IMG/VR virus record: IMGVR_UViG_3300050120_000012
Span: 7,813-71,812 of that record
Source: a virus
DNA: 64,000 bases
Direction: 5' to 3' (one strand)
Of this stretch, positions 4,876 through 60,946 are shown piece by piece. Every line of letters starts with the position of its first letter. The stretch's first letter is position 1. The notes under the pieces are model-generated. The model saw only the letters and a list, made by a program, of their open reading frames with translations, was not told where the DNA came from and did no database searches. The position numbers and the translations under genes were made by a program.

Positions 4876-5225
4876 CGTGATCCTCTTTGATTGACGCTAA
4901 GAAACATCGCGTGCATTGGACCACCGTCCTGTGATATGCTTAGCGGGTATGTGGACGCTCTTTCCATATCCACATATGACTTCTCCCCATGACATCTTGT
5001 GCCAAATCCGACTTCGATGCACCGGAAGAATGGATTTTCTGTGCTATGGTCACAGATGATCGTTGGCTTGGTGTAATGCTGGTATTGGCTCCAGCGCCAT
5101 TCCTTTAGATTGTTGAACTTCCAACGTGTCCATGTCGCACGTTGAAAGCATGTGCCGGGGCTCTTGTGGTTCAGCCTGCGTTGCTTGCGCTTGGCGTTGT
5201 TATTAGACTTGCGGATGCTACCCAT
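4872..5225 (-). CDS. hypothetical basic protein
   Basis: ORF overlapping both neighbours. Confidence 0.6.
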   Translation of the reverse strand: MGSIRKSNNNAKRKQRRLNHKSPGTCFQRATWTRWKFNNLKEWRWSQYQHYTKPTIICDHSTENPFFRCIEVGFGTRCHGEKSYVDMERASTYPLSISQDGGPMHAMFLSVNQRGSR

Positions 5226-10187: not shown

Positions 10188-10449
10188 CGGTGATCGGCTC
10201 CACTCGCGGCTCATCGGTTTGGGGCCAGCACGTTGTATGGGGAATCTCCGAAATGTCCATCTTGGTTTTCCAGTGTGAACCACAGACTCGGCACATGAGG
10301 TAGGACATTGCAGACCATCGTGGCTGATAACCATTGAACGCCGATCTGGATTCATGGTCGATCAGTACCACCCATTGCCTCGGGCGCTGATTTGATCCAG
10401 CCGGTACGATCTGTGGCCGGTTTCGTTCCGTGCAGCGACAGGCGCTCAT
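10180..10449 (-). CDS. hypothetical Zn-ribbon protein
   Basis: MSACRC...SAFNGY...S...CRVCGSHWKTK; ATGA coupling. Confidence 0.75.
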   Translation of the reverse strand: MSACRCTERNRPQIVPAGSNQRPRQWVVLIDHESRSAFNGYQPRWSAMSYLMCRVCGSHWKTKMDISEIPHTTCWPQTDEPRVEPITDV

Positions 10450-11087
10450 ATGATGTCCCAATCCAAAGAAGGATCGTCGAAGTCCGGTTCGGGTTCTTCA
10501 GTCTTACGGATCGGATCGCCGAACCCGTCTGTCTCGCCGGTCCACATAGACTCGACGGTCTTACGGAAGAGTTCGATGCGGTCTTTGTCAGGCTGGCGTA
10601 GTTCCGCTCGCGCTTGGATTGATCCGGGGGGTGGTAAAGAGGGGGTGCGCTCTAACCACTCCACGACAGTTTCAGTGTCGAGCGCGAGATCGACGATGCC
10701 GGTACGCGGACGTATGGTGAGGAAGTCTAAATCCTTCAGTGGCTTCATCCACCATCGCTCAGTCTTAGCGGGCATGGTCAAAAGACCGACGATGATCTCT
10801 TCGCCTAAACCGTCCAAGAAACGATCTGGACTGAACTCGCCGGTCGATTTGATGAGTGAATGACGCAAGGCTGCACCGACGACAGTCAGGCTATACATGC
10901 CATCTAGCTCGCGCCGCATGAGGCCATTCTTGACGCATAATTGTAGGGCTCGGGAGCGATTGACTGTGACAGCCGACTCCGATTTGCGCCCGCCTGACTT
11001 GGGCCGGTACATGGGGGATGAACCCATCTCATCCACAAGCTCAGCAAAGCCGGGATAGATTCTATGGGGCAGAGATCGGGGTTCCAT
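10446..11087 (-). CDS. hypothetical protein, possible wHTH, ending EPDFDDPSLDWDII
   Basis: First gene of the leftward operon; LQLCVKNGLM..DGMYSLTVVG looks like a wing. Confidence 0.75.
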   Translation of the reverse strand: MEPRSLPHRIYPGFAELVDEMGSSPMYRPKSGGRKSESAVTVNRSRALQLCVKNGLMRRELDGMYSLTVVGAALRHSLIKSTGEFSPDRFLDGLGEEIIVGLLTMPAKTERWWMKPLKDLDFLTIRPRTGIVDLALDTETVVEWLERTPSLPPPGSIQARAELRQPDKDRIELFRKTVESMWTGETDGFGDPIRKTEEPEPDFDDPSLDWDII

Positions 11088-11575
11088 GAAGCGTGAATCC
11101 TGTGAAGAATGTATGCTTAGAGGGTATTTTATCCTCTGTCAAATGGGCTAAAACCTTGGGGACAAATCCGGCGGAGTTTCACACGGCATACATATTCGGT
11201 TTATGTCAGCATATACAGTATGCGAGCATATGCAATGTCCTACATATTTGGTATTATACTGTTTTGGGGTACATTTTCATCATTCATCTCAGCGCATCAA
11301 ATCAACTCACTTACAATGTGTACCTTTTAAGTGTGCTAACGGCCTAATTGAACACTCTTATCTACTAGATAAATAGATAAAAGGATAAAAACAGCCCTCG
11401 ATTTGATCGGAAATGGCCCTAATCGTCCATCTGCATGGGCTCTCCCTTGGCCGTTTCAGGAGCCAACCGTTGCAGATCGACTTTTCGGATCGGGTTTCAT
11501 TTTGAAGAGTGGAATCGCACTAAGGAATGGCTCAAAAGTGGATAAAAACAGCACAGGATGGACTGCGCAGCCTCA

Positions 11576-11802
11576 TTAACCTTAACGGACGATTAACCTT
11601 AATGCCATGTTAAGGTTGACGCTTCATTAGGGTTAAGGGTCGGTCGATAGACATGAACAACACGTTAAGGTTAATTCTGGATAAATCTTACGATGGTGTT
11701 AAGGTTGATGGATCATTAAGGTTAATTCTGGATAAAACCTAACGAGCGTTAACCTTGATGAAAATACACCTTAAGAAAGTTCGATTGTTAGTGACTTGTT
11801 AG
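11576..11802. promoter_or_regulatory. tandem array of CtrA-box-like sites (TTAA-N7-TTAA, 17 bp period)
   Basis: Perfect boxes at 11582-11596 and 11599-11613; degenerate boxes at 11616, 11654, 11671, 11688, 11705, 11722 and 11788. Confidence 0.7.
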
Positions 11803-11819
11803 GAAAGACGCTATAGATT
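11788..11819 (+). promoter_or_regulatory. putative promoter with a CtrA-like box at the -35 position and GCTATAGA -10 element
   Basis: TTAG-N7-TTAG at 11788-11802, then GCTATAGA at 11810-11817, similar to the Caulobacter sigma70 -10 element. Confidence 0.45.
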
Positions 11820-11853
11820 GACGCCATAGGGGAACGACGCCCGCCGCGATCTT

Positions 11854-11930
11854 TGACATTGTGAATCCCCGTCTCGCGCTATAAAGGCGCGACTGATGAG
11901 CCTCAGTTAAGGCGAAACGGGAATATGTCA
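11854..11930 (+). ncRNA. type III hammerhead ribozyme
   Basis: GUC cleavage triplet 11871-73; stem I 11874-80/11886-92; core CUGAUGA 11893-99; stem II GCCU/AGGC 11900-03/11910-13; GAAA 11914-17; stem III CCCGU/ACGGG 11868-72/11917-21. Confidence 0.88.
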
Positions 11931-12088
11931 TGTTCGGCAAAACTAACATGCAAACGAAAATGGCGACCTTCAATCAAAGGTCGCTGAATGTGTCGCCAGC
12001 GTGGAACGGCATTTATGAACTGCGCAACTATCGCCGCTCGCAATCGCTGGCGGGTCGCCTCGCGGCTCTTCTCGGAAAGGTCGCCTAA
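11930..12088 (+). CDS. small hypothetical protein (52 aa, MFGKTNMQTK...)
   Basis: Hand-translated; GGGA upstream; TAATG coupling to the next gene. Confidence 0.6.
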   Translation: MFGKTNMQTKMATFNQRSLNVSPAWNGIYELRNYRRSQSLAGRLAALLGKVA

Positions 12089-12279
12089 TGGCTCGCACCT
12101 TTCATCACGACATGATGGCGGCGCTAGACGCCGAAACCTACAGCGGTCGGACGACTCCCGACAAAACGCATTACGCCATGCGCCGCGCTCTTCGTAAGGC
12201 AAACATGCGCGGTTCTGCGATCATGAATGACAAACAACTCGCAATGGCTACCTTGGCCGAATTGGCGGAGTGGAAATAA
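12088..12279 (+). CDS. small hypothetical protein
   Basis: TAATG coupling at both ends. Confidence 0.7.
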   Translation: MARTFHHDMMAALDAETYSGRTTPDKTHYAMRRALRKANMRGSAIMNDKQLAMATLAELAEWK

Positions 12280-14224: not shown

Positions 14225-15010
14225 ATGGCGCTTGGACCCGCACAAAAAGCCGAACTGATCGACGCGATTTACGTCAAGCTAGGCGTTCCTGCGGCTGCGG
14301 AACACTGTCATCTGAAGCTCCGCGACGTTCTGACGGAGATGGATGACGATGAGGACTTCGGAGCCGCCGTAGAGCAAGCTATGGCTCACCTGACACCCTT
14401 GGCCGAACAAGAGCTATTCCGCCGGGCAGTCCATGGGACGGAGAATTACGTCGTCAATCAGGGCCGCGTGGTCTTCCTCACCAATTCAGACGGCATATCG
14501 AAGCCTCTGATAGAGAAGAAGTATAGCGATGGCCTCCTGACGAAGTTCCTAGAGGCACGCAAGAAAGACGTTTTTGGAGCCAAAGTCGAAGTTGCTCACA
14601 AGCATAGCGGCTTTATTGCCGTCCCGGTCATGTCCATGGAGGAAATCCAGAACATGCTCGACTCTCCGGGAGATGAAGTGACCTTTATCGACGCCAGCTA
14701 TCAAGAGATCGTCGGTCAACGCCCCTTGGCCGTTGCAGATGCCGATGTTGAGGCCGATTGGCCGCCTCAGAGCGCGGATAGCGAGCCTCGGGCCTCACAA
14801 GCTGTTATCCAAGAGCGTGTCCGCGCTCTGACGACGCCCCGGCAAGAGCCCGAACTGATCGACTTCGACCCTCGGGACGACGCCATGGAGTTCGTCATGG
14901 ATCGGCTGGAGGATGAGCCGGACTTTGAGTTCGTCACGGCTGAGATCGAAGACACCGCCGAAGAGCTTAAGACGTTCGACGATGACGATGAACCGGACTT
15001 CGGCGTCTAA
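14225..15010 (+). CDS. terS: terminase small subunit (putative) with long acidic C-terminal extension
   Basis: Directly before terL; E.ELFRRAV.G...KYSD.LL..FLEA pattern. Confidence 0.7.
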   Translation: MALGPAQKAELIDAIYVKLGVPAAAEHCHLKLRDVLTEMDDDEDFGAAVEQAMAHLTPLAEQELFRRAVHGTENYVVNQGRVVFLTNSDGISKPLIEKKYSDGLLTKFLEARKKDVFGAKVEVAHKHSGFIAVPVMSMEEIQNMLDSPGDEVTFIDASYQEIVGQRPLAVADADVEADWPPQSADSEPRASQAVIQERVRALTTPRQEPELIDFDPRDDAMEFVMDRLEDEPDFEFVTAEIEDTAEELKTFDDDDEPDFGV

Positions 15011-16608
15011 TGGCTCAAGTTGCAACCGCACTCAAGCCCGTAGGCTCCCAATCTTATGTCAATCATAAGAAGCGCCTGACGAAGGACGCCACTTGGAAGC
15101 CCCAAGGTAAGGCCCAAGCCATCGCGCTCGCCTGTACGATGGTCAACGAAGTCCTCATGGAGGGCAATCGCGGCGGCGGTAAGACTATCACCCTCATCAT
15201 GACCTACGTCTCCCAAGTCGGACGCGGATGGGGTGCGAACTGGCGCGGCGTGATCTTCCGTCAGACCCATCCCGCGCTGAAGGACATCATCAAACAATCC
15301 AAGCAATGGATTCCGCTGATCTATCCCGGCGCGAAGTTCACTCACAATGATAGCACATGGACTTTCCCTGAAGGCGAACAACTGACATTCAGCCACTTCG
15401 CCAATCCCGACGACTATAAAGCATGGCACGGCCAAGAGCTTCCATTCATTGGATGGGAAGAACTCACCAACTGGTCTAACGATGAATGCTATTCCGTTAT
15501 GCTGTCCTGCAATCGTTCCTCGGCTGCGCCAAATCCTCTCACAGGCGAAGAGATGCCCCGGATCGTTCGCTCGACCACAAACCCATACGGCCCCGGACGG
15601 CTATGGGTGAAAGAACGGTGGGAACTCCCCGACATGCGCGGGAAGATCAGGACCGGGCTTGTGAACGACAAAGGCGAATCTCTTGGGGATCGCCTCGCTA
15701 TCCAGTTCTCGCTCGAATCTAACAAGATCATGCTCGACAATGACCCGAACTATCGGGCCAAGGTGCGCGCCGCGACCCAAGGCAATGAGGCCATGGAGAA
15801 GGCGTGGCTCGACGGGGATTGGGAGATCAGTGTCGGGGGCATGTTTGACGACCTGTGGGACCGTAAGGTACACGTCGTGGAACCCTTTGACCTACCCGGC
15901 GGTTCTACTCGTGGCGGCGGTGGCTGGAAGCTCTATAGGGCCTTCGATTACGGTTTCAGTAAGCCTTACTCCATAGGTCTTTACGCGGTATCCGATGGGA
16001 CACCATATCATGATCGTCAAGGCAATCTTCACACTTCTATTAACGGTGACGTATATCGCGTTGCCGAAATCTATGGTTGGGACGGGAAACCTAATCATGG
16101 ATGCAGGGAAGAGCCCGGCGAGATCGCCCAACGCCTGCTAGACTTTGAGATTGCTTGGGGAATACATGGGCTAGTCCAGCCCGGCCCCGCCGACTTGAAC
16201 ATCTTCTCTCGCGAACAAGGCAAGGCGATGCACGATGAGTTCGTGTCTCGCAAGGTCAACTTCCGCAAGGCGGCCAAGGAACCCGGCTCGCGCGTCCGGG
16301 GATGGATGCTGATCCGTCAGAAGCTCCTGAACGCCCTCCCGCGCTACCTCAATCCCGATGGGACGATTGTGTCGTCCAAGGATCGGAAGAAGGTCCACCC
16401 GGACGCCAAGCCTCTGCGTCGGGAAGAGCCTGCATTGTTCTTCTTCGGTGAAGACCGTAACAAGCATTTGCTGCGGACGATGATTGGTGCGCCGCGAGAT
16501 GAGAAGAACCCGGACGACATTGACACAGACTATGAAGATCACGCTCTGGACGAACTTCGATACTATATGACAACGAAGAAGATAGAGATCAAGCAAAGCA
16601 ACTATTGA
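15010..16608 (+). CDS. terL: terminase large subunit
   Basis: Walker A GNRGGGKT, Walker B FIGWEE, TTNP coupling motif, AFDYG and DHALDELRY nuclease motifs. Confidence 0.95.
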   Translation: MAQVATALKPVGSQSYVNHKKRLTKDATWKPQGKAQAIALACTMVNEVLMEGNRGGGKTITLIMTYVSQVGRGWGANWRGVIFRQTHPALKDIIKQSKQWIPLIYPGAKFTHNDSTWTFPEGEQLTFSHFANPDDYKAWHGQELPFIGWEELTNWSNDECYSVMLSCNRSSAAPNPLTGEEMPRIVRSTTNPYGPGRLWVKERWELPDMRGKIRTGLVNDKGESLGDRLAIQFSLESNKIMLDNDPNYRAKVRAATQGNEAMEKAWLDGDWEISVGGMFDDLWDRKVHVVEPFDLPGGSTRGGGGWKLYRAFDYGFSKPYSIGLYAVSDGTPYHDRQGNLHTSINGDVYRVAEIYGWDGKPNHGCREEPGEIAQRLLDFEIAWGIHGLVQPGPADLNIFSREQGKAMHDEFVSRKVNFRKAAKEPGSRVRGWMLIRQKLLNALPRYLNPDGTIVSSKDRKKVHPDAKPLRREEPALFFFGEDRNKHLLRTMIGAPRDEKNPDDIDTDYEDHALDELRYYMTTKKIEIKQSNY

Positions 16609-16648: not shown

Positions 16649-18220
16649 ATGGCCCGCGCACCCCGACCCACAAAAGCCAATGCCGCTTCGGTGAATCCGA
16701 ACACCAAGTCGCTCGAATGGCAGTCTATGAGCTACAAGTGGTGGCTCATGGCGACATGCTGGAGCGGAACGGCTTCGATGCGTGACGCCGGGCAAATCCT
16801 ACTCCCGAAACACCAAGGGGAATCGATCCTCCGCTATAATGATCGTCTCCAGAGCGCCGTCTTCACGAACTACGTCCGACTGACGGTTGAGTTCCTAGTC
16901 GGCAAGCCATTCTCTGAGAAGGTGGTCTTCCGCGATGGAACTCCACAGTCTTTGCTCGATCTCGAATCGGACGTGGATGGGACCGGAAACGATCTCACCA
17001 CCGTTTGCATGGACTTCTTCCAACGTGGCTACAAAGGCGGTCACTCATGGCTCATGATCGACTATCCGTCTGTCATGAACCCCGACAACGTGACGCTGGC
17101 GGACAAGGATAAGCTGAACCTCCGTCCGTACTGGATCGTCATGAATGGCGATGAAGTGCTGGACGCCGATGGGGCGCTGATCGAAGGCAAGTTCTGTTAT
17201 ACCCATATGCGGGTGTCGAAGTCCATCATCGTCAAGGATGGCTATTCGCAATCCATCGTCCGTCAGATTTGGGAATACAATCTCAAGGATCAGAACGTCG
17301 ATCCCGATCCGAACCATGAGCCTGACTATCGCGTCGTGGTGACGATCCACCAAGAGGAAAAGCCCAATAACGACAAGTGGACTATCGTATCGAACACTGT
17401 CACCACAGGTACGCGGATCACCGCCGTCCGTTTCAATAGTGCGCCCGATGGCGACATGACGTTGGAAGACCTTCTCTATCAGAATGTGGCGCACTGGCAA
17501 TCCACCGCCGATCAAAAAGCGTGTCTCGTTATGGCCCGCTTCCCGATCTTGGCCGCCGCCGGGGTTGACGATGACAAGACGTATGTCATCGGCTCCTATG
17601 AACTACTCCGCTCCAGCGATCCGTTGAGCAAGTTCTATTACGTTGAGAACAACGGTACAGCCATCGGCGTCGGATCGAAGGATATTGAGTCCATCGAAAC
17701 CCATATCGCCATGTATGGCGCGACCATGCTGAAGAAGAAGCCGGATCGTCAGTCCGCCACGTCGGCAACGCTCGACGAAGCGCAGAACATGGCTCCGCTC
17801 CAGATCATGGTCCTACAGTTCATGTCCGCCATGGAGCAAGTGTGTGACTACACGCTACTGTGGCTGAACGATCCGGCGGCGACTGACGACAAGACCTATG
17901 GCGTCAACGTCAATCTGGACTTTGCTCTGTCCGAAGAGCAACAGAAGCAAATGTCGTTTATCGAGAATGCGCGTCTTCAAGGCGACATCTCACGCATCCA
18001 ATACTTCACCATGGCGATTGAGCTTGGATATATCCCGTCCAGCTTCCCCATCGCCCTCAATCAGACGCAGATCGAAGCTGAACAAGCCGCCGATCAAGCG
18101 AACCAACTTGCCATCGCCTCTGCAAAGGGTGCGCAAGGAAACAACGGATCGGGAACCGGCGACCCGCTCAACAATCCGAATGATCCCAAGATCACGAAGA
18201 AGAACGTCCCCGCCGTTTAA
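16649..18220 (+). CDS. portal protein (DUF4055-like)
   Basis: Follows terL; 523 aa; LLPK..E...Y..RL..A.F.N and L.DL...N.AHWQS.AD motifs. Confidence 0.88.
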   Translation: MARAPRPTKANAASVNPNTKSLEWQSMSYKWWLMATCWSGTASMRDAGQILLPKHQGESILRYNDRLQSAVFTNYVRLTVEFLVGKPFSEKVVFRDGTPQSLLDLESDVDGTGNDLTTVCMDFFQRGYKGGHSWLMIDYPSVMNPDNVTLADKDKLNLRPYWIVMNGDEVLDADGALIEGKFCYTHMRVSKSIIVKDGYSQSIVRQIWEYNLKDQNVDPDPNHEPDYRVVVTIHQEEKPNNDKWTIVSNTVTTGTRITAVRFNSAPDGDMTLEDLLYQNVAHWQSTADQKACLVMARFPILAAAGVDDDKTYVIGSYELLRSSDPLSKFYYVENNGTAIGVGSKDIESIETHIAMYGATMLKKKPDRQSATSATLDEAQNMAPLQIMVLQFMSAMEQVCDYTLLWLNDPAATDDKTYGVNVNLDFALSEEQQKQMSFIENARLQGDISRIQYFTMAIELGYIPSSFPIALNQTQIEAEQAADQANQLAIASAKGAQGNNGSGTGDPLNNPNDPKITKKNVPAV

Positions 18221-46069: not shown

Positions 46070-47578
46070 CTAACCGTCGCCAATCTCTCGTAAAAGCTCT
46101 TGAAGACCTGTTCTGCTAATGCGTTCGGAAACGTCTTCTTTGTTGCCTAACAGGTTTAGAATGTAGTCGTCATTCGCATTGTTAGCTATGATGTCGATCA
46201 GGTCAACGGCCTTCTTTCCTAAAGCTGTGGCCCGGTCGCTCGCCTGATTGCGCTGGATCAGCGAAGGCGTATGCGAACTCCAGATCAGCGTCCCGGCAAC
46301 GGACATATCAACGCCAGCGCCGCCGGACTGCGGTTGGCCGATTATACCGGCGACTTCTGGATCATCCCTCAGATCGCGGAGGTTTTGGAATTTGATCTTC
46401 TGAGAAACGCCGCCGTACATCTGGAGCATACGACGGCCAAAGCCTTCTTCGACCAAGAGTTCTTCCAACATCTCAGTCATCTTCACGATGTCATACTTGA
46501 ACCGACACCATATGATGAACTTGCTATCGGAGTTCATCGCCTCATGGATCGTCAGGAGGAATCGTGGGTTATCCTTGGGCTTGACTAGCTCATGCAGAAC
46601 CTTGTTCTCATCCACTAGGAAGCCGGAACTGATCTGTTGAAACTTCAGCATGAGAGTACCGCCGTCCAAGGCTCGCCCTCCCATCACAGGTTCCTTCTTC
46701 AGCGCACGCCAGACCTTGATCTGATTATCGGTCATCTCGAAACGACGCTGCGTATCGATGGGCTTCAGAAGTCCAGCGTCCTCGCGCGTCACTACAGAGG
46801 CGTACTTCGCAATCGCCGTCTTGAGTTCTTCTTCGTTCTTCGGTCCAAGGAACTTCTGATATTTCCGATTGTTCTTTGTGGTCTTCGTCTCCCATATGCC
46901 GAAGTGATTCTTGAACGTCTCAGACGTGTCAAACCCTAGCGCGCCTTCCTCCAGTATTTCGAACTGTGAGTAAGCCTGCATCGGCGACTCATCAATCGCC
47001 GTCCCTGATAGGATGCGTCTGAAGTTCGACGCATTACGAATGGCCTTTGTTGCGCCGGTTCTAGCAGAACCCGGTGCGCCGTATTGATGGCTTTCATCCG
47101 CGACTAAGAAGACCTTCCCCTTGTGATACTTGAGAAAAGTCTTCAGAAAGGCGCGACACACCTTAGACGCCAACGACTCACTGTTGACGGACAGGATCAT
47201 GAGCTTATCGCGACCGCGACACACCCGCTCAAACTGCGCCATGTACGCCTTTTGCTTGGTGCGAGCGCGGTTGGCATTCCAAATCATCCCTTCCCATGGG
47301 ACTTGATCTGGCATGTGCCGGGGGATTTCCTCCAGTATCCAGTTTTGGTGTGCGATGTTCGGCGCGAGGATGACGACGGCGGTGATCCGTCCGACGTGAT
47401 AGTTGAAGGCGAAGGTATCGATGACCGCCTTGGACTTACCCGAACGCATTGACCACAGTAGAGCGCGAGCCGCGACGGACCTGTATTTGAAGAACTCCGT
47501 CCGCTGTGTGCTACGCGGCGGCGTCTTGAAGGTGAGTGGCCCAATAGGTTTGCGGGGCTTCGCGGCTGGCCTTTGCAC
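46070..47578 (-). CDS. SNF2-family DNA helicase
   Basis: MRSGKS, VADESH, ILSGT, GG.GV.M and Q..DR motifs. Confidence 0.9.
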   Translation of the reverse strand: MQRPAAKPRKPIGPLTFKTPPRSTQRTEFFKYRSVAARALLWSMRSGKSKAVIDTFAFNYHVGRITAVVILAPNIAHQNWILEEIPRHMPDQVPWEGMIWNANRARTKQKAYMAQFERVCRGRDKLMILSVNSESLASKVCRAFLKTFLKYHKGKVFLVADESHQYGAPGSARTGATKAIRNASNFRRILSGTAIDESPMQAYSQFEILEEGALGFDTSETFKNHFGIWETKTTKNNRKYQKFLGPKNEEELKTAIAKYASVVTREDAGLLKPIDTQRRFEMTDNQIKVWRALKKEPVMGGRALDGGTLMLKFQQISSGFLVDENKVLHELVKPKDNPRFLLTIHEAMNSDSKFIIWCRFKYDIVKMTEMLEELLVEEGFGRRMLQMYGGVSQKIKFQNLRDLRDDPEVAGIIGQPQSGGAGVDMSVAGTLIWSSHTPSLIQRNQASDRATALGKKAVDLIDIIANNANDDYILNLLGNKEDVSERISRTGLQELLREIGDG

Positions 47579-49755
47579 TACTTACGATACCGGAGCATGG
47601 CTGCGCCTTCGGCGGCGATGGGGAAGCCTCTGCCCCAATTCGGAAGGTGACACATGAGATCGCATAGAAGCTGCGCAGCGGCTTTGCTTCCACCTAATGC
47701 TTCGACGCGGACGATCTCCAGCGCCGTGACTAGCTCATCGTGGACGGTAAGTAGAAGCTCGAATTGACCATGACGCTTTACGACCCGCATAGCGTGCGCC
47801 ATAAGATCGCGACACAAAGCCTGTACGATGTTCTCGACTAGCTTTCCCCCGTAGGTGTAGCTCCGATCCCACTTCTTCGTGAAGCTGTTGATCTCCATGT
47901 ACGAGATCGCCAGCTTCCTCGACTTCGTGTATGTGACCTTGCCTGTCACTTCGTCCACGTCTTCCCATACGCGCTCCGTCCATTCCAGCTTGGGATAGGG
48001 ATAGGGGATCAGCCTGCCCGAAGGCAACTGGCAAAACAGGAAGCGCCCGGCGCGCTTATAGGCAATGTGCGAATTGACGCGGACTACCGATCCGGGGTTC
48101 TGCATCGCCTCGATAGCTGCGCCCTCACAGGCGTACCAAAAGGCTTTGACCGGCGCATGACGCTCACGATAGCCAAGGATGCCTTTCTTGGCCGTGTCTA
48201 GGTCAATGATGATCTTCGATTGAGCGCAGTAGTCAATGAACTTCGGAGGGCCTAGCTGATACCCTGCGCCCAAGATGATTTGCTTGCCGAACTGGCGTTC
48301 ATCGGCCCAACGGATAGACGGGGCTTTGTTCTTCTTATCTTCATCGAACTCGCGTTTGATCGTCGCGTAGTCGAGATTGTTTACGAAGGCCGCCATCTCC
48401 AGATAGGAGTCGATGCCCTGATTGAATAGCTCTACGCCGTCGTGGTGATCGCAGACCCAAAACAGACCGCGTGCTTCCACGGATGAATAGTCGGCGGTGA
48501 CAAGCATCTTATCTTTGCCGGGCAGGATCGCACCACGCAACGCGCCAGAGAAGACGCTGTAGAGATCGTCATACTCTTCTTCTAGTTCCTCTGCGTCCAA
48601 GTTCATAAGAGCAAAGACGGTATCGTCCATGTTCTTAATCTTGCCACGCGGAAGGTTCTGCGGCTGGATGCCTACTCCCGCCCACCGGGACGTGCGAGAT
48701 GCACCGGCATACATGAGAACGTCTCTACACCGCCCGTCGTCAGACGCACGGTATCGAATGGTCTTATATTTTGCTGTTGATGCGCGACCAGCCATACGCA
48801 CACGACTAACAACGCCGTGTATATGGTCTGGAAGGAAATCATCTTCCAAGAGCGCGTCGAGAGTAGCAGCCTGCGTATTGGGAAGTTCAAAGCCATTTTC
48901 TAGCATCCATTCTTTGAGTTGATTTCGCGCTGTGACTTTCGGGACTTTCCCGTCAGTTAGACGCTGTATCTCTTCTTCATACTTCCCCCGAAGGTATGCC
49001 AAGGTCTCCATTGCCTTATCGACAAGTTCAAGGTCGATAGGGATGCCGCGTTCGTTGATCTCCTGATCGATCAGCCAAATCTCTTGCTCGACCGGCGATA
49101 GATCAGGGAGGGATTGACTGAACCGCTCTTCAGCGAGAACGTCCTTCCGGCAATAGACGATCAGACGCTTGATAGATGTCGCGTCTTGAACCCATCGCTC
49201 GGGTTGCTTCTTCGTCGCCTTCTTCGGACGACACATGGTCATCATGAGCTTGTGACCTTCCTTGTCCTTCTGGACAGGGAGGTTCATGATCTCACAGCAC
49301 TTCTCCAGACCACGCGGGAGACTGTACGATGCAGCCTTGGCCGCCGAACATCTCCATTGCACGTCTGGAATGTCGGGCCAGAACTCAGGGACTAGCTTGC
49401 TGCGCCAGACGGCGCGTTCGAACATGGCATTGTGGGCTTCAACGACTCCGCCATCTTCGATCCACTTGCATAGATCGGCTGGCGGCGGCATCCGTGGGAC
49501 GCCACAGATGTCCGCGATCCAATCGGGAACCCACACCGCTGTCTTGCCCTCGGGCCAGAAGGGCAGGCGGTAGCAGAGGCACATGACCTGTGTGGAGTCG
49601 TCCGACGCATAGCGCCAAGCGCCGGACTTCTTTAGATCGATCCGCGACCTTGTTTCGAAGTCGATAGTGGCGCGTTGAAGACGTGTTTTTGCTGGAGGCT
49701 TCGGCTTGCGAACCTCTACTCCGGGACCGCCAATGGTTCCGAGATCAAAAGCCAT
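47578..49755 (-). CDS. DNA polymerase family A with 3'-5' exonuclease
   Basis: IDFETRS and AHNA.FE (exonuclease); ADYSSVEAR (motif A), RQ.GK...LG.GY (motif B), VHDE (motif C). Confidence 0.95.
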   Translation of the reverse strand: MAFDLGTIGGPGVEVRKPKPPAKTRLQRATIDFETRSRIDLKKSGAWRYASDDSTQVMCLCYRLPFWPEGKTAVWVPDWIADICGVPRMPPPADLCKWIEDGGVVEAHNAMFERAVWRSKLVPEFWPDIPDVQWRCSAAKAASYSLPRGLEKCCEIMNLPVQKDKEGHKLMMTMCRPKKATKKQPERWVQDATSIKRLIVYCRKDVLAEERFSQSLPDLSPVEQEIWLIDQEINERGIPIDLELVDKAMETLAYLRGKYEEEIQRLTDGKVPKVTARNQLKEWMLENGFELPNTQAATLDALLEDDFLPDHIHGVVSRVRMAGRASTAKYKTIRYRASDDGRCRDVLMYAGASRTSRWAGVGIQPQNLPRGKIKNMDDTVFALMNLDAEELEEEYDDLYSVFSGALRGAILPGKDKMLVTADYSSVEARGLFWVCDHHDGVELFNQGIDSYLEMAAFVNNLDYATIKREFDEDKKNKAPSIRWADERQFGKQIILGAGYQLGPPKFIDYCAQSKIIIDLDTAKKGILGYRERHAPVKAFWYACEGAAIEAMQNPGSVVRVNSHIAYKRAGRFLFCQLPSGRLIPYPYPKLEWTERVWEDVDEVTGKVTYTKSRKLAISYMEINSFTKKWDRSYTYGGKLVENIVQALCRDLMAHAMRVVKRHGQFELLLTVHDELVTALEIVRVEALGGSKAAAQLLCDLMCHLPNWGRGFPIAAEGAAMLRYRK

Positions 49756-56943: not shown

Positions 56944-59457
56944 ATGTCAATTTCGGGTCCAACATCTCTGCTACCCAAGCCAAGCCAGCTTACCGCATAT
57001 GGTCAGGCGAATTGGCAGTATGTACGACTCCACCATTGGTCTGAGACGAAGACCCTTCCGCCCAACGCCAAGGGTGAAGTGAAGGTGATGAAATTGGGGA
57101 AGGCCCCCATCGGGAAGAAGTGGACGCTCAACGGCGTCGATCTCGAAAAAGCCGTGGCGCACGCAAACATGGGGAAGAATGTCGGCGCGCTCATCCCCAA
57201 AGGATGGGCCGTTCTCGACATCGATCCACGCAACTTTCCGAAGGGGCGCAAGGTATGGAATGAGTTCTGTACCGCGATGGGGATTGACGAAACTGAATTG
57301 CCGTTGGTGGTCACAGGTTCGAAGGGCCGTCACTACTTCGTTAGAATCCCGGAAGACTTCAAAGGTTCCGTAGGGCATCCCGACTATCCGGGTGTCGAGT
57401 TCAAGCAAAATGGCGCGCAAGTCGTCACAGCCGGGTCCATCCATCCCGATACACAGGGCTACTATATGTGGGCGGAAGGCCGTCCCGCTATGGAAGACGC
57501 GCCGATGGCCCCGGACACGGTTCTGGAGCTATTCAAGATCAAAGCGCCAACGCTCGGCGGCGCACGCGGATCAGGATCATGGAACTCCCTGACGCTGGAG
57601 CAAATCGACGAAGCTCTTGCGGCGCTAGACGCGACCAAGTTTCGCGATCAGGACGAATGGTTCGGACTCATGTGTTCCGTACACTGGCTATCCGGTGGCG
57701 AGGGACGCGAGAACTGGATTGAGTGGTCCACCAGCGATCCCTCATATGAGGACCACCGCGAAATTATTGAGATGCGGTGGGACTCCCTTGGCCGCGATAA
57801 CGATTCGAACGCCTTGGTCGCGAAAGGCGGTTTGCTGTTCAAAGCCCTCAAAGCGGAGGGCATCTCGCCGGGTGATGCGAAGTGGAAGCTGGACCCGGAT
57901 AAGGACTTCGAAGACTATGACGAAGCTGAAGCTGAGACGGATGCAGCGAACCTCAAGCTAGTCCATGAAGCGATCACCGATAAAATCCAGAAGACCGCTG
58001 GATCACTATTGGAGGCGATGAACAATCGTCACTTCGTTCTATGGCATAAAGCGAAGGTTGTCATCGGGTCCATCGTCAAGGAAGAAGATGACAATGGTGC
58101 AGAGATCACCGTTTACAATTTCACAGACAAGACTTCCTTTGGGACCTTCTATGCCAATAAAACCATCAAAGGTCCAGACGGCCCACTACCCGTCTCGGAT
58201 TGGTGGCTGCACCATCCGGGGCGGCTTACCTATAATGGCATGGAGTTCCGACCTGACAGGACGCCCGGTGCTTACATTAACCCTCAGAATGAGAAGATTC
58301 TGAACCAATGGACCGGATGGGCGCTGAAGCCAAAGAAGGGTGATTGGTCACTCTTCAAAGACCTGATCGACAAGACGATCTGCGGAGAAGACCCGGCCAA
58401 GATAGAATATATCTATAAGTGGTTCGCCAAAGCCTATCAGAAGCCGGATGGCCCAATCGGTACGGCGATGGCGATCAATGGTCTGAAGGGTACAGGTAAG
58501 ACCACCGTATGGGAAGTCTTCAGCGCACCGTTTGGATCGTCGCACGCCATGGCGACATCACGGATGAGCGAAGTCTTCGGGGACTTCAACGGTCGGATGA
58601 TGGGTAAGATGGCCCTCTTGATCGAAGAAGCCCTCTTTGCCGCGTCCAAGACATCGAACGCCATTCTGAAGGACACCATCACAGGCGGCAAGGTGTCCAT
58701 CAATGAGAAGTTCCTACCCGCATACTCACAGAAGAATTTCCTCCGCATCCTGATCTTCACGAACAACGATCATATCGTGGAAGCGACGGAAGATGAACGC
58801 CGGTTCTTCGTTACCCGCGCGCTAACCAATCGGAAGTACGATCCGGGTTTCTGGAAAGCCCTTCGTAAGCAAATGTTTGAAGAAGATGGAGTTGCGGCCT
58901 TCTTCCACGATATGCTAGAGATGGACATCACAGGCTTTGATGCCTTTCACGATATGCCGCGAACGAAGGAATTGCTGGAGCAAATCAACATCACGCGGGG
59001 CGCGACCCTCGATTGGCTTGCCGAGAAGTTTGACTCTGGCGAAGACCAATTCGGGTACGCATGGAAAAATGCCAAGCAAGAGTTCATCCTGCCAATCCAT
59101 GAAATGTGGATGGACTTCGCCATGTGGCAGAAGAACCAATCTCACGCCCGGTACGACAATCCAATCAAGTCACAGTCAGGGTTCAGCCGCGAGCTAAAGC
59201 GCGTCTTCGATGAACTGGCGCTCACCACCGCCAGCGTCCCGGCCGAGTTCGCAGCATTCGAGATCAAGTCTCACGAACAGGTGGTCAATAACAAGACCTA
59301 CCAAATCGCCAAGGTTTATAGGTTTCACAGCTACGCAGAGTTTGAAGGTACATTCCGCAAGCGGTATGGACTAGAGATGCCGGATTACGATCCATCACAT
59401 GACGAAGCGGACGATGAGCCTGACTTCGGCACAGAAGACGAATGGGACATCATATGA
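56944..59457 (+). CDS. primase-helicase (bifunctional Prim-Pol, PriCT-2, DUF5906-like NTPase) ending EPDFGTEDEWDII
   Basis: GKAP, NVG..LDIDPRN, TGS.GRHY, GSIHP, EWS...Y...W.S, GTGKTT and N....I.TN..DERRF motifs. Confidence 0.92.
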   Translation: MSISGPTSLLPKPSQLTAYGQANWQYVRLHHWSETKTLPPNAKGEVKVMKLGKAPIGKKWTLNGVDLEKAVAHANMGKNVGALIPKGWAVLDIDPRNFPKGRKVWNEFCTAMGIDETELPLVVTGSKGRHYFVRIPEDFKGSVGHPDYPGVEFKQNGAQVVTAGSIHPDTQGYYMWAEGRPAMEDAPMAPDTVLELFKIKAPTLGGARGSGSWNSLTLEQIDEALAALDATKFRDQDEWFGLMCSVHWLSGGEGRENWIEWSTSDPSYEDHREIIEMRWDSLGRDNDSNALVAKGGLLFKALKAEGISPGDAKWKLDPDKDFEDYDEAEAETDAANLKLVHEAITDKIQKTAGSLLEAMNNRHFVLWHKAKVVIGSIVKEEDDNGAEITVYNFTDKTSFGTFYANKTIKGPDGPLPVSDWWLHHPGRLTYNGMEFRPDRTPGAYINPQNEKILNQWTGWALKPKKGDWSLFKDLIDKTICGEDPAKIEYIYKWFAKAYQKPDGPIGTAMAINGLKGTGKTTVWEVFSAPFGSSHAMATSRMSEVFGDFNGRMMGKMALLIEEALFAASKTSNAILKDTITGGKVSINEKFLPAYSQKNFLRILIFTNNDHIVEATEDERRFFVTRALTNRKYDPGFWKALRKQMFEEDGVAAFFHDMLEMDITGFDAFHDMPRTKELLEQINITRGATLDWLAEKFDSGEDQFGYAWKNAKQEFILPIHEMWMDFAMWQKNQSHARYDNPIKSQSGFSRELKRVFDELALTTASVPAEFAAFEIKSHEQVVNNKTYQIAKVYRFHSYAEFEGTFRKRYGLEMPDYDPSHDEADDEPDFGTEDEWDII

Positions 59458-60314
59458 GTATCAAGGCCGTCGTTATCGAAGACTCCATCTCTGCCATTGA
59501 TGGCAAGCGTCTAACCACCCTCCAGCTTCGATACCCTCGGTTCATCCATGCGGAGTTCATGACGCACCGCATCTTCAGTCGCAATGCGTCGTCGAGCCGC
59601 GCCATCCCGGTAAGCCGTCTGATCCAAGACATCATTGACGATCCTGCGGAGCCGGTGAAGTGGGGAACCAATCGTCCGGGGATGCAAGCCGGGGAAGAGA
59701 TGCGCGGGCTGGAGCTTGCGTCTGCTAAGGCGTACTGGCGTGAAGACCGGGAACACAGCATCCTCATGGCGCGAGCCTTGGACGGCTGTGGAGCGTCAAA
59801 GCAACTCGTCAACCGTCTGATCGAAAACCACGGACATATCAACGTCGTCTGCACCGCAACGGAGTTTGCCAACTGGTTTGCTCTGCGGAACCATTGGATG
59901 GCTGATCCGACTATCGAAGCTCTGGCGATAGCTATGTGGAATGCGATGGAGGATTCGAAGCCGGTGGAGCTTGGGCGGCGCGATTGGCATACACCCTACG
60001 TCAACGCGGCCAAGGAAGATTTGGACCGGCGCGAGGCGATCCTATGCTCCGTCGCCCGATGCGCCCGCGTGAGCTATTTGACGCACGATTTGGTGAAGCC
60101 CAAGGTCGAAAACGACTTGCGCCTAGCACACGATCTAGTAGGTTCGACGCCGAAACACGCAAGCCCTGCGGAACACCAAGCCCGGCCTCTAGCTGAAGGC
60201 GAGGGTGAGAAGCGGTTTGTGGATGGCGCTGATCTCCCGACCGGCAACTGGATAAAGAACTTCAACGGCTGGCGCATGTACCGCGCCGACATAGCAGATG
60301 AGACGGTTTGGTGA
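59454..60314 (+). CDS. thyX: flavin-dependent thymidylate synthase
   Basis: PRFIHAEFMTHR.FSRNASSSRAIP, F.LR, S.ARCARVSY and HASP.EH motifs. Confidence 0.9.
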   Translation: MSIKAVVIEDSISAIDGKRLTTLQLRYPRFIHAEFMTHRIFSRNASSSRAIPVSRLIQDIIDDPAEPVKWGTNRPGMQAGEEMRGLELASAKAYWREDREHSILMARALDGCGASKQLVNRLIENHGHINVVCTATEFANWFALRNHWMADPTIEALAIAMWNAMEDSKPVELGRRDWHTPYVNAAKEDLDRREAILCSVARCARVSYLTHDLVKPKVENDLRLAHDLVGSTPKHASPAEHQARPLAEGEGEKRFVDGADLPTGNWIKNFNGWRMYRADIADETVW

Positions 60315-60946
60315 CTTACGGGGTATCCGCTACTGGAGGCAACCCCGAAGCGGGACGGCGTGAGGCGGACTTCTACTCGACGCCCGAAGACGCCACCGAA
60401 GCGGCATCATATGGCATACCCGGTCTGGATAAAATGACCGGCGTTTGGGAGTGTGCGTGCGGCGATGGACGACTTGCGAAAGTTCTGGAGAAGCGTCGGC
60501 CCGGTTGGAAGATGGCTGCTACCGATCTCTTTGATCGCTCTTATGGTGTGGGAGGGGTGGACTTCCTGACGGCTGAGTGGCCCGACGATCTGGATAAAGA
60601 CTCGACGGTCATCTTCACCAATCCACCCTTCAGTCTATCCGAACAGTTCATCCGCCGCGCGTTGTCCCATGACGTTGCGATGGTGGTCATGTTCAGCAAG
60701 TCCACATACTATCATGCCGATGTTCGACGCAGCTTCTTCGAAGAGATGGCTCCCCAATACAAATACGATCTTACCTTTCGTGTGGACTTCTCCGGCCAAG
60801 GAAGACCAACGATGGAATGCTCTTGGCTGGTATGGGTTCGTGACGCAGACGATCCGAACATATGCCAGCTTCGACTACTGCCACGTTCGCCGCTTATGCC
60901 TTCGCGTAAGCTCGCCTTAACCGATGAAGATTGGGACATATTATGA
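60311..60946 (+). CDS. DNA amino-methyltransferase (N6A/N4C type) ending DEDWDIL
   Basis: DFYSTP, WECACGDG (SAM binding), DFL and TNPPF catalytic motif. Confidence 0.85.
   Translation: MTYGVSATGGNPEAGRREADFYSTPEDATEAASYGIPGLDKMTGVWECACGDGRLAKVLEKRRPGWKMAATDLFDRSYGVGGVDFLTAEWPDDLDKDSTVIFTNPPFSLSEQFIRRALSHDVAMVVMFSKSTYYHADVRRSFFEEMAPQYKYDLTFRVDFSGQGRPTMECSWLVWVRDADDPNICQLRLLPRSPLMPSRKLALTDEDWDIL

What the first reader, a model, noticed from the sequence alone, without database searches (positions are those of the whole stretch)
11576..11802. Strictly 17-bp-periodic array of CtrA-like boxes
Seen: TTAA-like half-sites at 11576, 11582, 11593, 11599, 11610, 11616, 11627, 11633, and again at 11654, 11665, 11671, 11682, 11688, 11699, 11705, 11716, 11722, 11733, 11739, with alternating +6/+11 spacing. 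This is a chain of TTAA-N7-TTAA units joined by 2 bp while the N7 spacers vary. A 21-mer, TTAAGGTTAATTCTGGATAAA, repeats at 11665 and 11716. A last TTAG-N7-TTAG box sits at 11788. Established: TTAA-N7-TTAA is the binding site of CtrA, the alphaproteobacterial cell-cycle master regulator, and CtrA sites have been described in some alphaproteobacterial phages. Inference: about nine phased boxes could be a cooperative CtrA~P sensor or sponge that reads swarmer versus stalked state, or could repress a phage origin as at Cori.
Basis: partly seen in the sequence, partly recalled or inferred. Interest (0 to 1): 0.8.

Follow-up and report, generated by a model that had tools for sequence, protein, structure and literature searches.

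The report
CtrA-type site array in phage gap
A lytic phage from an uncultured sample carries, between its two opposed gene blocks, a tight array of DNA words of the kind bound by CtrA, the cell-cycle regulator of alphaproteobacteria; related phages were shown in 2022 to have such a control region, so this is a new example, not a new kind.

Summary
The array is real and far beyond chance. Its repeated unit is a 10-mer, TTAAGGTTAA, in either orientation. There are eight copies with at most one mismatch, and all lie in 11576-11758. They form two clusters on a 17-bp lattice: four strictly periodic units, a 38-bp step, then four more. Only 2 TTAA-N7-TTAA boxes are perfect and 5 have one mismatch.

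The window is most of a 71.6-kb lytic siphovirus that is syntenic with Brevundimonas phage vB_BsubS-Delta. The array sits in the same gap between divergent gene blocks. In Delta, Mascolo et al. 2022 (PMC9437464) showed CtrA~P binding and CtrA-dependent repression there. Delta-like gaps are built from the same 10-mers. The CtrA reading is therefore supported by analogy, not tested here. The "sponge" and "origin" ideas stay open.

New detail: the unit extends to GTTAAGGTTAAC. Across IMG/VR, tandem copies sit 17 or 27 bp apart (31 and 42 stretches) but almost never 22 bp apart (2 stretches). That is one helical turn of quantisation. A near-threshold hammerhead ribozyme lies just downstream.

An earlier report of this scan (e1-5948679) describes a similar region in another phage. 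Verdict: new member of a known kind.

The parts
11576..11636 (.). Cluster A: four 10-mer units at exact 17-bp steps. They are 11576 TTAACCTTAA (-), 11593 TTAACCTTAA (-), 11610 TTAAGGTTGA (+) and 11627 TTAGGGTTAA (+). Together they form an imperfect 27-nt inverted repeat with 7 nt between the arms.
   Evidence: (I1)
11582..11613 (.). The only two perfect TTAA-N7-TTAA boxes of the whole genome (11582-11596 and 11599-11613). Each bridges two neighbouring 10-mers, and the two boxes are 2 bp apart.
11665..11758 (.). Cluster B: units at 11665 (+, exact), 11699 (+, 1 mismatch), 11716 (+, exact) and 11749 (-, 1 mismatch). Lattice positions 11682 and 11733 are degenerate. The cluster contains a 51-bp duplication (11665/11716) whose first 21 nt, including TCTGGATAAA, are identical. 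It holds five TTAA-N7-TTAA boxes with one mismatch (11654, 11671, 11688, 11705, 11722).
   Evidence: (D1)
11788..11802 (+). TTAG-N7-TTAG, a weak box (two mismatches to TTAA-N7-TTAA), followed by GCTATAGA at 11810-11817. It resembles the per-gene element GTAA-N7-TTAA-GGAATGGC of locus L061. It may be a box overlapping a promoter; this is speculative.
11365..11395 (+). A+T-rich tract (AGATAAAA x3) ending in GGATAAAAACAGC. The 13-mer recurs at 11540-11552, just left of the array. An A+T-rich tract holds the same relative position in the Delta-like gaps.
   Evidence: (D3)
11866..11923 (+). Type III hammerhead ribozyme candidate (full-length model match, GUC / CUGAUGA / GAAA core intact). It lies between the array and the first rightward ORF. 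Predicted cleavage is after C11873.
10446..11087 (-). First gene of the leftward block of small genes of unknown function (213 aa). No Pfam or PHROG family and no relative found in IMG/VR.
11930..12279 (+). First two ORFs of the rightward block that leads to TerS, TerL and portal: 11930-12088 (52 aa) and 12088-12279 (63 aa). The 63-aa ORF belongs to the DELTA_5 small three-helix protein family. That family also lies near 10-mer clusters in Delta-like phages, in CcrSC-type DTR loci, and in L028 and L061.

Best explanation
The array is the CtrA-docking part of the control ('gap') region of a Delta-like lytic siphovirus. Each 10-mer is two abutting half-sites of the type GTTAAS. A half-site of one unit and the facing half-site of the next unit lie 11 bp apart (TTAA-N7-TTAA), which is the spacing at which phosphorylated host CtrA binds.

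A run of units 17 bp apart therefore offers a chain of dimer sites only 2 bp apart. When CtrA~P is high in the host cell, the chain would fill. It would then hold down, or tune, the promoters that fire out of the gap towards the leftward early block and the rightward structural block. This couples the phage programme to the host's cell-cycle or motility state, the 'lytic deferment' idea of Mascolo et al. 2022.

Shown here: the array, its statistics, its position, the synteny with Delta, the shared 10-mers, stronger conservation of TTAA than of spacers, and helical-turn quantisation of the spacing. Taken from print: CtrA~P binding and CtrA-dependent repression at Delta's gap. Inferred: that this phage's host has CtrA, that CtrA binds this array, which promoter is controlled, and the sign of control.
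For: 1. Real and unique. All 8 copies of the 10-mer in the window lie in 183 bp. All 4 exact copies in the complete record lie there too, and the reversed control pattern gives 0. The array holds 2 of 2 perfect and 7 of 12 one-mismatch TTAA-N7-TTAA boxes of the genome, while simulated genomes never exceed 2 per 250 bp.

2. Position. It lies in an 842-bp gap of 43% G+C between divergent gene blocks.

3. Kinship with Delta. Twenty-nine of 94 ORFs hit the part of Delta that I held, at 27-65% identity and in the same order, and the gene order matches. Delta, Poludnitsa, Leszy and Fanboy each carry 11-13 units of the same 10-mer. In the stretches held, these occur only in the equivalent gap.

4. 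Experiment in print. Mascolo et al. 2022 report a CtrA~P band shift with an 81-bp probe from Delta's gap. They also report 4.5- to 6-fold higher reporter activity in a ctrA-ts strain (sections 23 and 24).

5. Selection on TTAA. Within the arrays of three Delta-like phages, 99 of 104 TTAA columns are invariant against 140 of 188 other columns.

6. Helical phasing. In IMG/VR, exact tandem 10-mers occur with N7 in 31 stretches (27 contigs), with N17 in 42 stretches (36 contigs), and with N12 in 2 stretches. The facing TTAAs are thus 11 or 21 bp apart, one or two turns. In this window the two clusters are joined by a 32-bp step (11633 to 11665), about three turns.

7. A host factor fits better than a phage factor. 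The same word occurs in at least 12 locus groups that share no long, near-identical DNA (megablast matches of 300 bp or more), from 72-kb siphoviruses to 320-kb Caulobacter phages. Among cultured phages, the records that match the array part of the query are from Brevundimonas, Caulobacter and Erythrobacter hosts.

8. No phage rival found. No response regulator or other DNA-binding Pfam domain turned up in the ORFs scanned.

9. Host precedent. The C. crescentus pilA promoter has four CtrA sites, two of them 3 bp apart, and the upstream sites repress and raise sensitivity to CtrA level (PMC11264516, passages).
Against: - No binding or expression data exist for this phage. No RNA run holds it.
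- The host is unknown. At 55.6% G+C the phage is well below Delta (62%), and only kinship to Brevundimonas phages points to a host that has CtrA.
- Only 2 N7 boxes are perfect. The 10-mer, including its SS dinucleotide and the flanking G and C (77% and 83% of 260 unique instances), is better conserved than the CtrA consensus alone requires.
- Units 27 bp apart, and single units, do not form TTAA-N7-TTAA at all.
- The phiCbK sites that were validated with mutant probes are ordinary single TTAACGGTTTGTTAAC boxes, not 10-mers.
- The Delta probe had only a cold-competitor control and used 3.3 uM CtrA (methods passage).
- The 10-mer is not visibly enriched in 301 alphaproteobacterial genomes against a reversed control. 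The doubled form is almost absent from 185,579 species genomes: 20 stretches, mostly microsatellites in other phyla. Hosts therefore do not use this form of site.
- DELTA_120, the ORF whose promoter was tested in Delta, is not conserved here. Only a 32-aa ORF remains, so the controlled target is unclear.
Confidence: 0.65

Rival explanations
1. The 12-mer GTTAAGGTTAAC is the site of another protein. This could be a small phage-encoded factor or another conserved host factor, for example the CtrA partner SciP. In that case the TTAA-N7-TTAA boxes are a by-product of placing 10-mers 17 bp apart.
For: - The 10/12-mer is conserved as a unit, including the SS dinucleotide and the flanking G and C.
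- Units 27 bp apart (42 stretches) and single units beside terminators and promoters give no N7 box.
- Hosts do not use the word more than a control.
- A small 63-aa three-helix protein family lies near the clusters in 5 lineages.
- The unit is a 7-of-8 match to TTAACCAT. That 8-mer has been tied to CtrA and to SciP; this link is recalled, and one search gave only a listing.
Against: - The same word in at least 12 locus groups with no shared DNA argues against a fast-evolving phage factor.
- The small protein has no structural match at E <= 0.001 in PDB and nothing marks it as DNA-binding. It was found near clusters in only 5 loci on 4 contigs by the IMG/VR scan.
- No DNA-binding Pfam domain was found in this phage.
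- CtrA~P does shift a Delta probe made of these units.
- Mascolo et al. saw no positional bias for SciP, GcrA or DnaA models in these phages.
Confidence: 0.17
2. The gap is the phage replication origin, and the 10-mers act as iterons or as CtrA boxes that gate initiation, as at Caulobacter Cori.
For: - Repeats lie next to an A+T-rich tract (11365-11395).
- Three 8-of-9 matches to the DnaA box consensus (consensus recalled) lie at 11537, 11676 and 11727, all on one strand. The window holds 18 such matches against 8.5 expected.
- The gap is the lowest-G+C part of the region.
Against: - The replication genes lie 33-52 kb away (PolA 47578-49755, primase-polymerase 56944-59457).
- Two of the three DnaA-like words are copies within one duplication.
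- I saw no such DnaA-like words in the Delta-like gaps, by eye.
- Seventeen-bp spacing is unlike the helically in-phase iterons of plasmids (recalled).
- Cumulative GC skew mainly follows transcription direction.
Confidence: 0.1
3. The array is a packaging recognition (pac) site, bound by the small terminase subunit.
For: It lies upstream of the packaging and structural block. TerS starts at 14225, about 2.5 kb downstream. Repeat arrays bound by TerS are known in other phages (recalled).
Against: - The same word occurs in phages with no related DNA, including inside the terminal repeats of Caulobacter jumbo phages. TerS proteins and their sites are normally lineage-specific.
- Delta is reported as circularly permuted, and no role for the gap in packaging was noted (section 18 passage).
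- The assembly closes into a circle with no end at the array.
Confidence: 0.03

Closest known systems
[quoted passage not shown] 2022, PMC9437464)
   Same: - The genome architecture is the same and 29 proteins are shared.
- The gap lies between divergent blocks, upstream of the small genes that precede TerS.
- It is built from the same TTAA-SS-TTAA units.
- Predicted sites are extremely concentrated in one region.
- An A+T-rich tract lies to the left of the array.
   Different: - This array is shorter: 8 units against 11-13, in a gap of 842 bp against 1.2-1.3 kb.
- It is more regular, on a 17-bp lattice, while the Delta-like arrays mix 13, 17, 18 and 25 bp.
- Sequence similarity outside the motifs is weak.
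- The DELTA_120 ORF is not conserved.
- A hammerhead ribozyme candidate follows the array here and was not found in the others.
- Nothing has been tested experimentally, and the host is unknown.
Multi-site CtrA promoters and origin of Caulobacter crescentus (pilA promoter, hemE Ps, Cori)
   Same: Several CtrA boxes lie within a few base pairs of each other. In pilA the upstream sites repress and sharpen the response to CtrA level. Cooperative binding is reported at hemE Ps (PMC11264516, passages).
   Different: Host promoters have 2-5 degenerate boxes at irregular spacing. They do not use the doubled half-site unit. Here the units are near-identical and phased.
Canonical CtrA-activated phage promoters (phiCbK gp005 and gp018)
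   Same: They use the TTAA-N7-TTAA(C) word in a phage of an alphaproteobacterium. Binding was shown with mutant-probe controls.
   Different: Those are single boxes (TTAACGGTTTGTTAAC) placed over the -35 region, and they activate. The array here is a cluster of doubled half-sites away from any recognisable promoter. phiCbK also has a separate 10-mer cluster at 1921-2094 that was not tested.
Plasmid and phage iteron arrays
   Same: Direct and inverted copies of a short word in a non-coding region next to an A+T-rich tract.
   Different: No initiator gene is adjacent. The word is shared by unrelated phages, and the spacing is not an integer number of helical turns from unit to unit.

Membership tests
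LPEG-phage CtrA-site gap region (Mascolo et al. 2022) | Strong positional concentration of predicted CtrA boxes in one genome region | tested here: met
   The array holds 2 of 2 perfect and 7 of 12 one-mismatch TTAA-N7-TTAA boxes within 250 bp of a 71.8-kb genome. Simulated genomes never exceed 2 per 250 bp. I used a plain consensus, not the authors' scoring matrix or their entropy measure.
LPEG-phage CtrA-site gap region (Mascolo et al. 2022) | Sites lie in non-coding DNA: a gap between divergent gene blocks or a terminal repeat | tested here: met
   The gap is 842 bp, between 10446-11087 (-) and 11930 (+). No ORF of 60 aa or more crosses the array.
LPEG-phage CtrA-site gap region (Mascolo et al. 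2022) | The host is an alphaproteobacterium that encodes CtrA | tested here: inconclusive
   The host is unknown and the phage has no tRNA genes. The nearest cultured relatives infect Brevundimonas. Array-like matches among cultured phages come from phages of alphaproteobacteria.
LPEG-phage CtrA-site gap region (Mascolo et al. 2022) | CtrA~P binds the sites and CtrA changes expression of the adjacent promoter | not testable with these tools
   Known only for Delta, phiCbK and Cp1R7A-A1.
Canonical CtrA box | TTAA-N7-TTAA(C): two TTAA half-sites 11 bp apart | tested here: met
   Two boxes are perfect (11582, 11599) and five have one mismatch. The best-conserved unit, however, is TTAA-N2-TTAA.
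Delta-like siphoviruses | Shared gene content and order with vB_BsubS-Delta | tested here: met
   Twenty-nine of 94 ORFs match the Delta stretches held (first 50 kb and last 7.2 kb) at 27-65% identity, colinear. Identity is low enough that this is a different genus at least.
Iteron-type replication origin | Iterons next to the initiator gene, with a DNA-unwinding element and DnaA boxes | tested here: inconclusive
   An A+T-rich tract and three 8-of-9 DnaA-like words are present. The replication genes are far away, and there are no functional data.
Terminase pac/cos site | Lineage-specific repeats bound by TerS at or near the genome end | tested here: not met
   The word is shared by unrelated phages. 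The assembly closes as a circle with no end at the array.
Hammerhead ribozyme type III (RF00008), for the neighbouring element | Three-stem junction with CUGAUGA, GAAA and a cleavable GUH triplet, scoring above Rfam's gathering score | tested here: inconclusive
   The match covers the full model (1-54 of 54) and all core words are present, with E 1.7e-6 over the window. The score is 44.6 bits, below the gathering score of 48.5.

The most novel reading that the evidence does not exclude
The doubled half-site GTTAAGGTTAAC is a phage-specific 'super-site' class, distinct from ordinary CtrA boxes. It is rare in host chromosomes. It recurs in at least a dozen phage lineages with no shared DNA. It is always placed so that facing TTAAs lie exactly one or two helical turns apart (unit spacing 17 or 27 bp, almost never 22 bp).

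If CtrA binds it, the arrays would load a continuous chain of dimers on alternating faces of the DNA. Such a chain would give a very steep, switch-like read-out of CtrA~P, or could soak CtrA up as the phage genome multiplies. If CtrA does not bind it, an unknown conserved factor does.

Neither the unit nor the spacing rule is mentioned in the main text of the 2022 paper: 'spacing' and 'cooperative' each occur 0 times. Two full-text searches for the word listed 42 and 39 papers. I saw the top 10 of each, and none concerned phages. The paper's figures and supplements were not seen.
Probability: 0.3. Interest if true: 0.65.

Novelty: new member of a known kind. Interest (0 to 1): 0.4.

Why it matters
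This finding extends the 'lytic deferment' type of control region, in which a phage reads the host's CtrA state, in two ways. It now includes a distant, uncultured relative of Brevundimonas phage Delta. It also shows that the signature recurs widely in IMG/VR.

The array here is the most regular example I saw. That regularity exposes the building rule: doubled half-sites, with facing half-sites one or two helical turns apart. The rule gives a concrete, testable model of how many CtrA dimers load and why the response could be steep.

The hammerhead ribozyme candidate between the array and the first structural-block gene would add an RNA-processing step to the same control region. As a discovery about phage biology the finding is confirmatory. 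The phasing rule is the part worth a bench test.

Tried and rejected
- Tandem Repeats Finder sees only an 8-bp AGATAAAA repeat, not the array.
- A relative search with the 213-aa gene to the left found nothing in IMG/VR.
- Pfam and PHROGs give no DNA-binding protein, response regulator or SciP-like protein in the ORFs scanned. This covered 78 ORFs over. Most structural-block ORFs between 18.2 and 41.8 kb were not scanned.
- The 63-aa DELTA_5-family protein folds as a three-helix bundle (pLDDT 85). It has no PDB match at E <= 0.001, so nothing supports it as the binder.
- A sigma-54 promoter, a lead from earlier report e1-5948679: no match with 2 or fewer mismatches in the gap, and fewer window-wide than in shuffles.
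- Sigma-70-type scan: 2 weak promoter-like sites in 11000-12100, no more than in shuffles. I could not assign promoters. My comparisons with the L061 and phiCbK promoter words are by eye.
- RNA structure: the array folds better than shuffles (z -3.8). That is expected from inverted copies of one word, and I do not read it as an RNA element.
- Whole-window Rfam scan: only the hammerhead. A crude structural pattern finds no such ribozyme in the other loci held. My first two patterns were faulty and missed even the window's own copy.
- Expression: no RNA holder was listed for this stretch. The laid contigs of three runs show no sequence variants, so there is no microdiversity to read.
- Host genomes: the table of 301 genomes was compared by eye and not summed.
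- Supplementary files of Mascolo et al. (site lists, probe sequences, reporter maps) and Figure 5 could not be seen. They may already show the 10-mers.

Full report
WHAT IS THERE

The 842-bp stretch 11088-11929 is non-coding and has 43% G+C. It separates a leftward block of small genes of unknown function, whose first gene is 10446-11087, from a rightward block. The rightward block starts at 11930 and runs through TerS (14225-15010), TerL (15010-16608), portal (16649-18220) and the tail genes.

Inside this gap the sequence read shows one repeated 10-mer, TTAAGGTTAA, in both orientations. A window-wide search with at most one mismatch finds 8 copies, all between 11576 and 11758. Shuffles give a mean of 0.92 and a maximum of 3, and 0 of 100 reach 8. 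The complete record has 4 exact copies, all in the array, and none of the reversed control pattern.

The units and their orientations are:
- 11576 (-)
- 11593 (-)
- 11610 (+)
- 11627 (+)
- a 38-bp step
- 11665 (+)
- 11699 (+)
- 11716 (+)
- 11749 (-)

The first four units form an imperfect 27-nt inverted repeat (I1). The second cluster contains a 51-bp duplication whose first 21 nt are identical.

Of the 19 half-site positions listed, 11 are exact TTAA and 8 differ by one letter.

Read as TTAA-N7-TTAA, the genome has only two perfect boxes, at 11582 and 11599, both in the array. It has 12 boxes with at most one mismatch, and 7 of them are in the array. In 100 Markov simulations no 250-bp window held more than 2.

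The observation therefore holds and is highly non-random. The conserved unit, however, is the 10-mer. Strict 17-bp periodicity holds only for the first four units, and there are 7 usable boxes, not about nine.

WHAT THE GENOME IS

The window is bases 7813-71812 of a 71,812-base IMG/VR virus record. The record's first 187 bases repeat at its end at 98.9% identity. A 71,655-base contig in run X1 has ends that overlap by 30 bases. Both give a closed map of about 71,625 bp, so the genome is probably complete.

It encodes its own DNA polymerase A, helicases, primase-polymerase, single-strand-binding protein, exonuclease, thymidylate synthase and ribonucleotide reductase. I found no integrase or repressor in the ORFs scanned, so it looks lytic.

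[quoted passage not shown] Twenty-nine of 94 ORFs match the Delta stretches held at 27-65% identity, in the same order.

THE PUBLISHED PRECEDENT

Mascolo et al. 2022 (PMC9437464; abstract, sections 20 and 22-24, and searched passages read) describe the following for Delta:
- A 1,312-bp gap between divergent gene blocks holds 30 TTAA words, 12 of which form TTAA-N7-TTAA.
- An 81-bp probe from that gap is shifted by phosphorylated C. crescentus CtrA and competed by cold probe.
- A reporter runs 4.5- to 6-fold higher in a ctrA-ts strain, which the authors read as repression by CtrA.

They call such phages LPEG phages and propose 'lytic deferment'.

I fetched the gaps of Delta, Poludnitsa, Leszy and Fanboy. 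Each holds 11-13 copies of the same 10-mer, found only in the gap within the stretches held, at spacings of 13, 17, 18 and 25 bp. To the left lies an A+T-rich tract, as in this window.

Outside the motifs, similarity to the window is weak, with a few short colinear blocks. The equivalence is therefore positional and compositional rather than a good alignment.

Within the arrays of three of these phages, 99 of 104 TTAA columns are invariant against 140 of 188 other columns. Selection acts on the TTAA words.

THE BUILDING RULE

A scan of IMG/VR for two exact 10-mers with an N7 spacer found 31 stretches on 27 contigs. Many carry dozens of copies.

In 260 unique instances the unit extends to G-TTAAGGTTAA-C, with G in 77% and C in 83%. 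That is two abutting hexamers of the type GTTAAS.

The spacing of neighbouring units in those loci peaks at 17 bp (56 pairs) and 27 bp (51 pairs). That count is biased by the search pattern. I therefore ran two more whole-collection scans:
- N17 spacer: 42 stretches on 36 contigs.
- N12 spacer: 2 stretches.

The facing TTAAs of neighbouring units thus lie 11 or 21 bp apart, one or two helical turns, and almost never 16 bp apart. In the window the two clusters are joined by a 32-bp step (11633 to 11665), about three turns.

This is what is expected if proteins on facing half-sites must sit on the same face of the helix. It fits response regulators of the OmpR/PhoB type, which bind repeats one turn apart (general knowledge, recalled). 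The 21-bp case is not a described CtrA mode as far as I know.

HOST FACTOR OR PHAGE FACTOR

The loci fall into at least 12 groups with no long, near-identical DNA in common (megablast matches of 300 bp or more). These include 317- and 322-kb contigs whose lengths equal those of the Caulobacter phage records CcrSC and CcrBL9.

Among cultured phages, the records matching the array part of the query come from Brevundimonas, Caulobacter and Erythrobacter hosts. A word kept unchanged across such distant phages points to a slowly evolving host protein.

Against a simple CtrA reading:
- Hosts do not seem to use this form. In 301 alphaproteobacterial genomes the 10-mer is about as frequent as its reversed control (compared by eye).
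- The doubled form occurs in only 20 stretches of 185,579 species genomes, mostly as microsatellites in other phyla.
- The phiCbK sites validated with mutant probes are ordinary single boxes, TTAACGGTTTGTTAAC.

The arrays are therefore a phage-specific way of using TTAA half-sites. CtrA binding to them rests on the single Delta probe.

A PHAGE CANDIDATE THAT LED NOWHERE

A 63-aa protein (12088-12279) belongs to a family that also lies near 10-mer clusters in Delta-like phages, a CcrSC-type locus, L028 and L061. It models as a three-helix bundle (pLDDT 85) with no PDB match at E <= 0.001. It may be a gene controlled by the arrays rather than their binder.

TARGETS AND MECHANISM

I could not place the promoters.
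- The sigma-70 scan is no better than chance.
- No sigma-54 site lies in the gap.
- DELTA_120, whose 'promoter' was the Delta reporter, corresponds to a 68-aa ORF in Poludnitsa whose translation looks like translated repeat DNA. It is only a 32-aa ORF here. I doubt it is a gene.

Two weak leads remain:
- Leftward promoter-like words (TTAACA-17-CAGAAT) lie inside cluster B and would be covered by bound protein.
- The TTAG-N7-TTAG box at 11788 resembles a per-gene element of locus L061.

By analogy with Delta and with the pilA promoter of C. crescentus, I take repression or threshold-setting as the most likely action. In pilA, closely spaced upstream CtrA sites repress and raise sensitivity (PMC11264516, passages). 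The sign and the target of control are inferred.

RIVALS

Origin of replication. The gap has an A+T-rich tract and three 8-of-9 DnaA-box-like words. However, the replication genes are far away, two of the three words are one duplication, and I did not see them in the Delta-like gaps.

pac site. The same word occurs in unrelated phages, and the assembly shows no end here.

Other binder. This is not excluded; see the points above.

NEIGHBOUR WORTH NOTING

Rfam finds one element in the whole window: a type III hammerhead ribozyme at 11866-11923 (+). The match covers the full model and keeps the GUC, CUGAUGA and GAAA core. It scores 44.6 bits against a gathering score of 48.5, with E 1.7e-6.

It ends 6 nt before the ATG at 11930. 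If it is active, the rightward transcript must start upstream of 11866, between the array and the ribozyme or further left, and would be cut after C11873.

VERDICT

The array is real. Its best reading is a CtrA docking array in the control gap of a Delta-like phage. That is a new member of a kind described in 2022, and an earlier report of this scan (e1-5948679) reached the same class for another phage. The doubled half-site unit and its one-turn spacing rule are the new, testable part.

Noticed in passing
window 11866-11923 (+): Type III hammerhead ribozyme candidate. The match covers the full Rfam model and keeps the GUC, CUGAUGA and GAAA core. It scores 44.6 bits against a gathering score of 48.5, with E 1.7e-6. 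It ends 6 nt before the first rightward ORF. A crude pattern search did not find it in the Delta-like phages or in the other loci held.
   Followed up: partly
window 11383, 11540, 11679, 11730 (+), 11128 (-), and 14037 (+) / 14065 (-): A second clustered word, GGATAAA(AAC). Seven of its 10 copies in the window lie in two non-coding regions. One pair forms an inverted repeat upstream of TerS. The other three copies (60250-60598) are inside or next to a coding region. The binder is unknown. Two copies overlap 8-of-9 DnaA-box-like words.
   Followed up: partly
window 13950, 14219 (+), 24207, 51800 (-): TTAACCAT, the CtrA-type 8-mer, occurs 4 times against 0.68 expected (1 of 100 shuffles reach 4). 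All four lie in non-coding DNA or over a start codon (TerS at 14225; the ORF at 24207).
   Followed up: no
window 12088-12279 (+); L030 12664-12861; L028 8621-8857; L061 about 5001-5153: A small three-helix protein family (DELTA_5-like, 62-78 aa) lies near 10-mer clusters in several otherwise unrelated phages. The AlphaFold model has pLDDT 85 and no PDB fold match.
   Followed up: partly
G000 ends (record 1-187 and 71626-71812); run X1 contig: The record's ends overlap by 187 bp at 98.9% identity. An independent-format contig of 71,655 bp closes on itself with a 30-base overlap. The genome map is therefore circular, about 71,625 bp, and probably complete, although the record is listed as linear and 82% complete.
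   Followed up: yes
L058 2278-2484 (-) (Poludnitsa_00580, homologue of DELTA_120); window 11456-11554 (-): The 68-aa ORF used as the reporter target in Delta translates to a repetitive hydrophobic string. It is not kept as an ORF in this phage, where only 32 aa remain. It may not be a gene.
   Followed up: partly
L007, L021, L012, L027 (IMG/VR contigs): In another phage group, single 12-mers sit in nearly every intergenic region between a terminator hairpin and a promoter-like word. A GTTAACCAT lies 27 bp from the start of the unit. This is a genome-wide promoter module built on the same word.
   Followed up: no
L067 (phiCbK) 1921-2094: phiCbK has a cluster of five 10-mer units in a non-coding stretch of its terminal repeat. 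The cluster is separate from the single canonical boxes that were tested by band shift.
   Followed up: no
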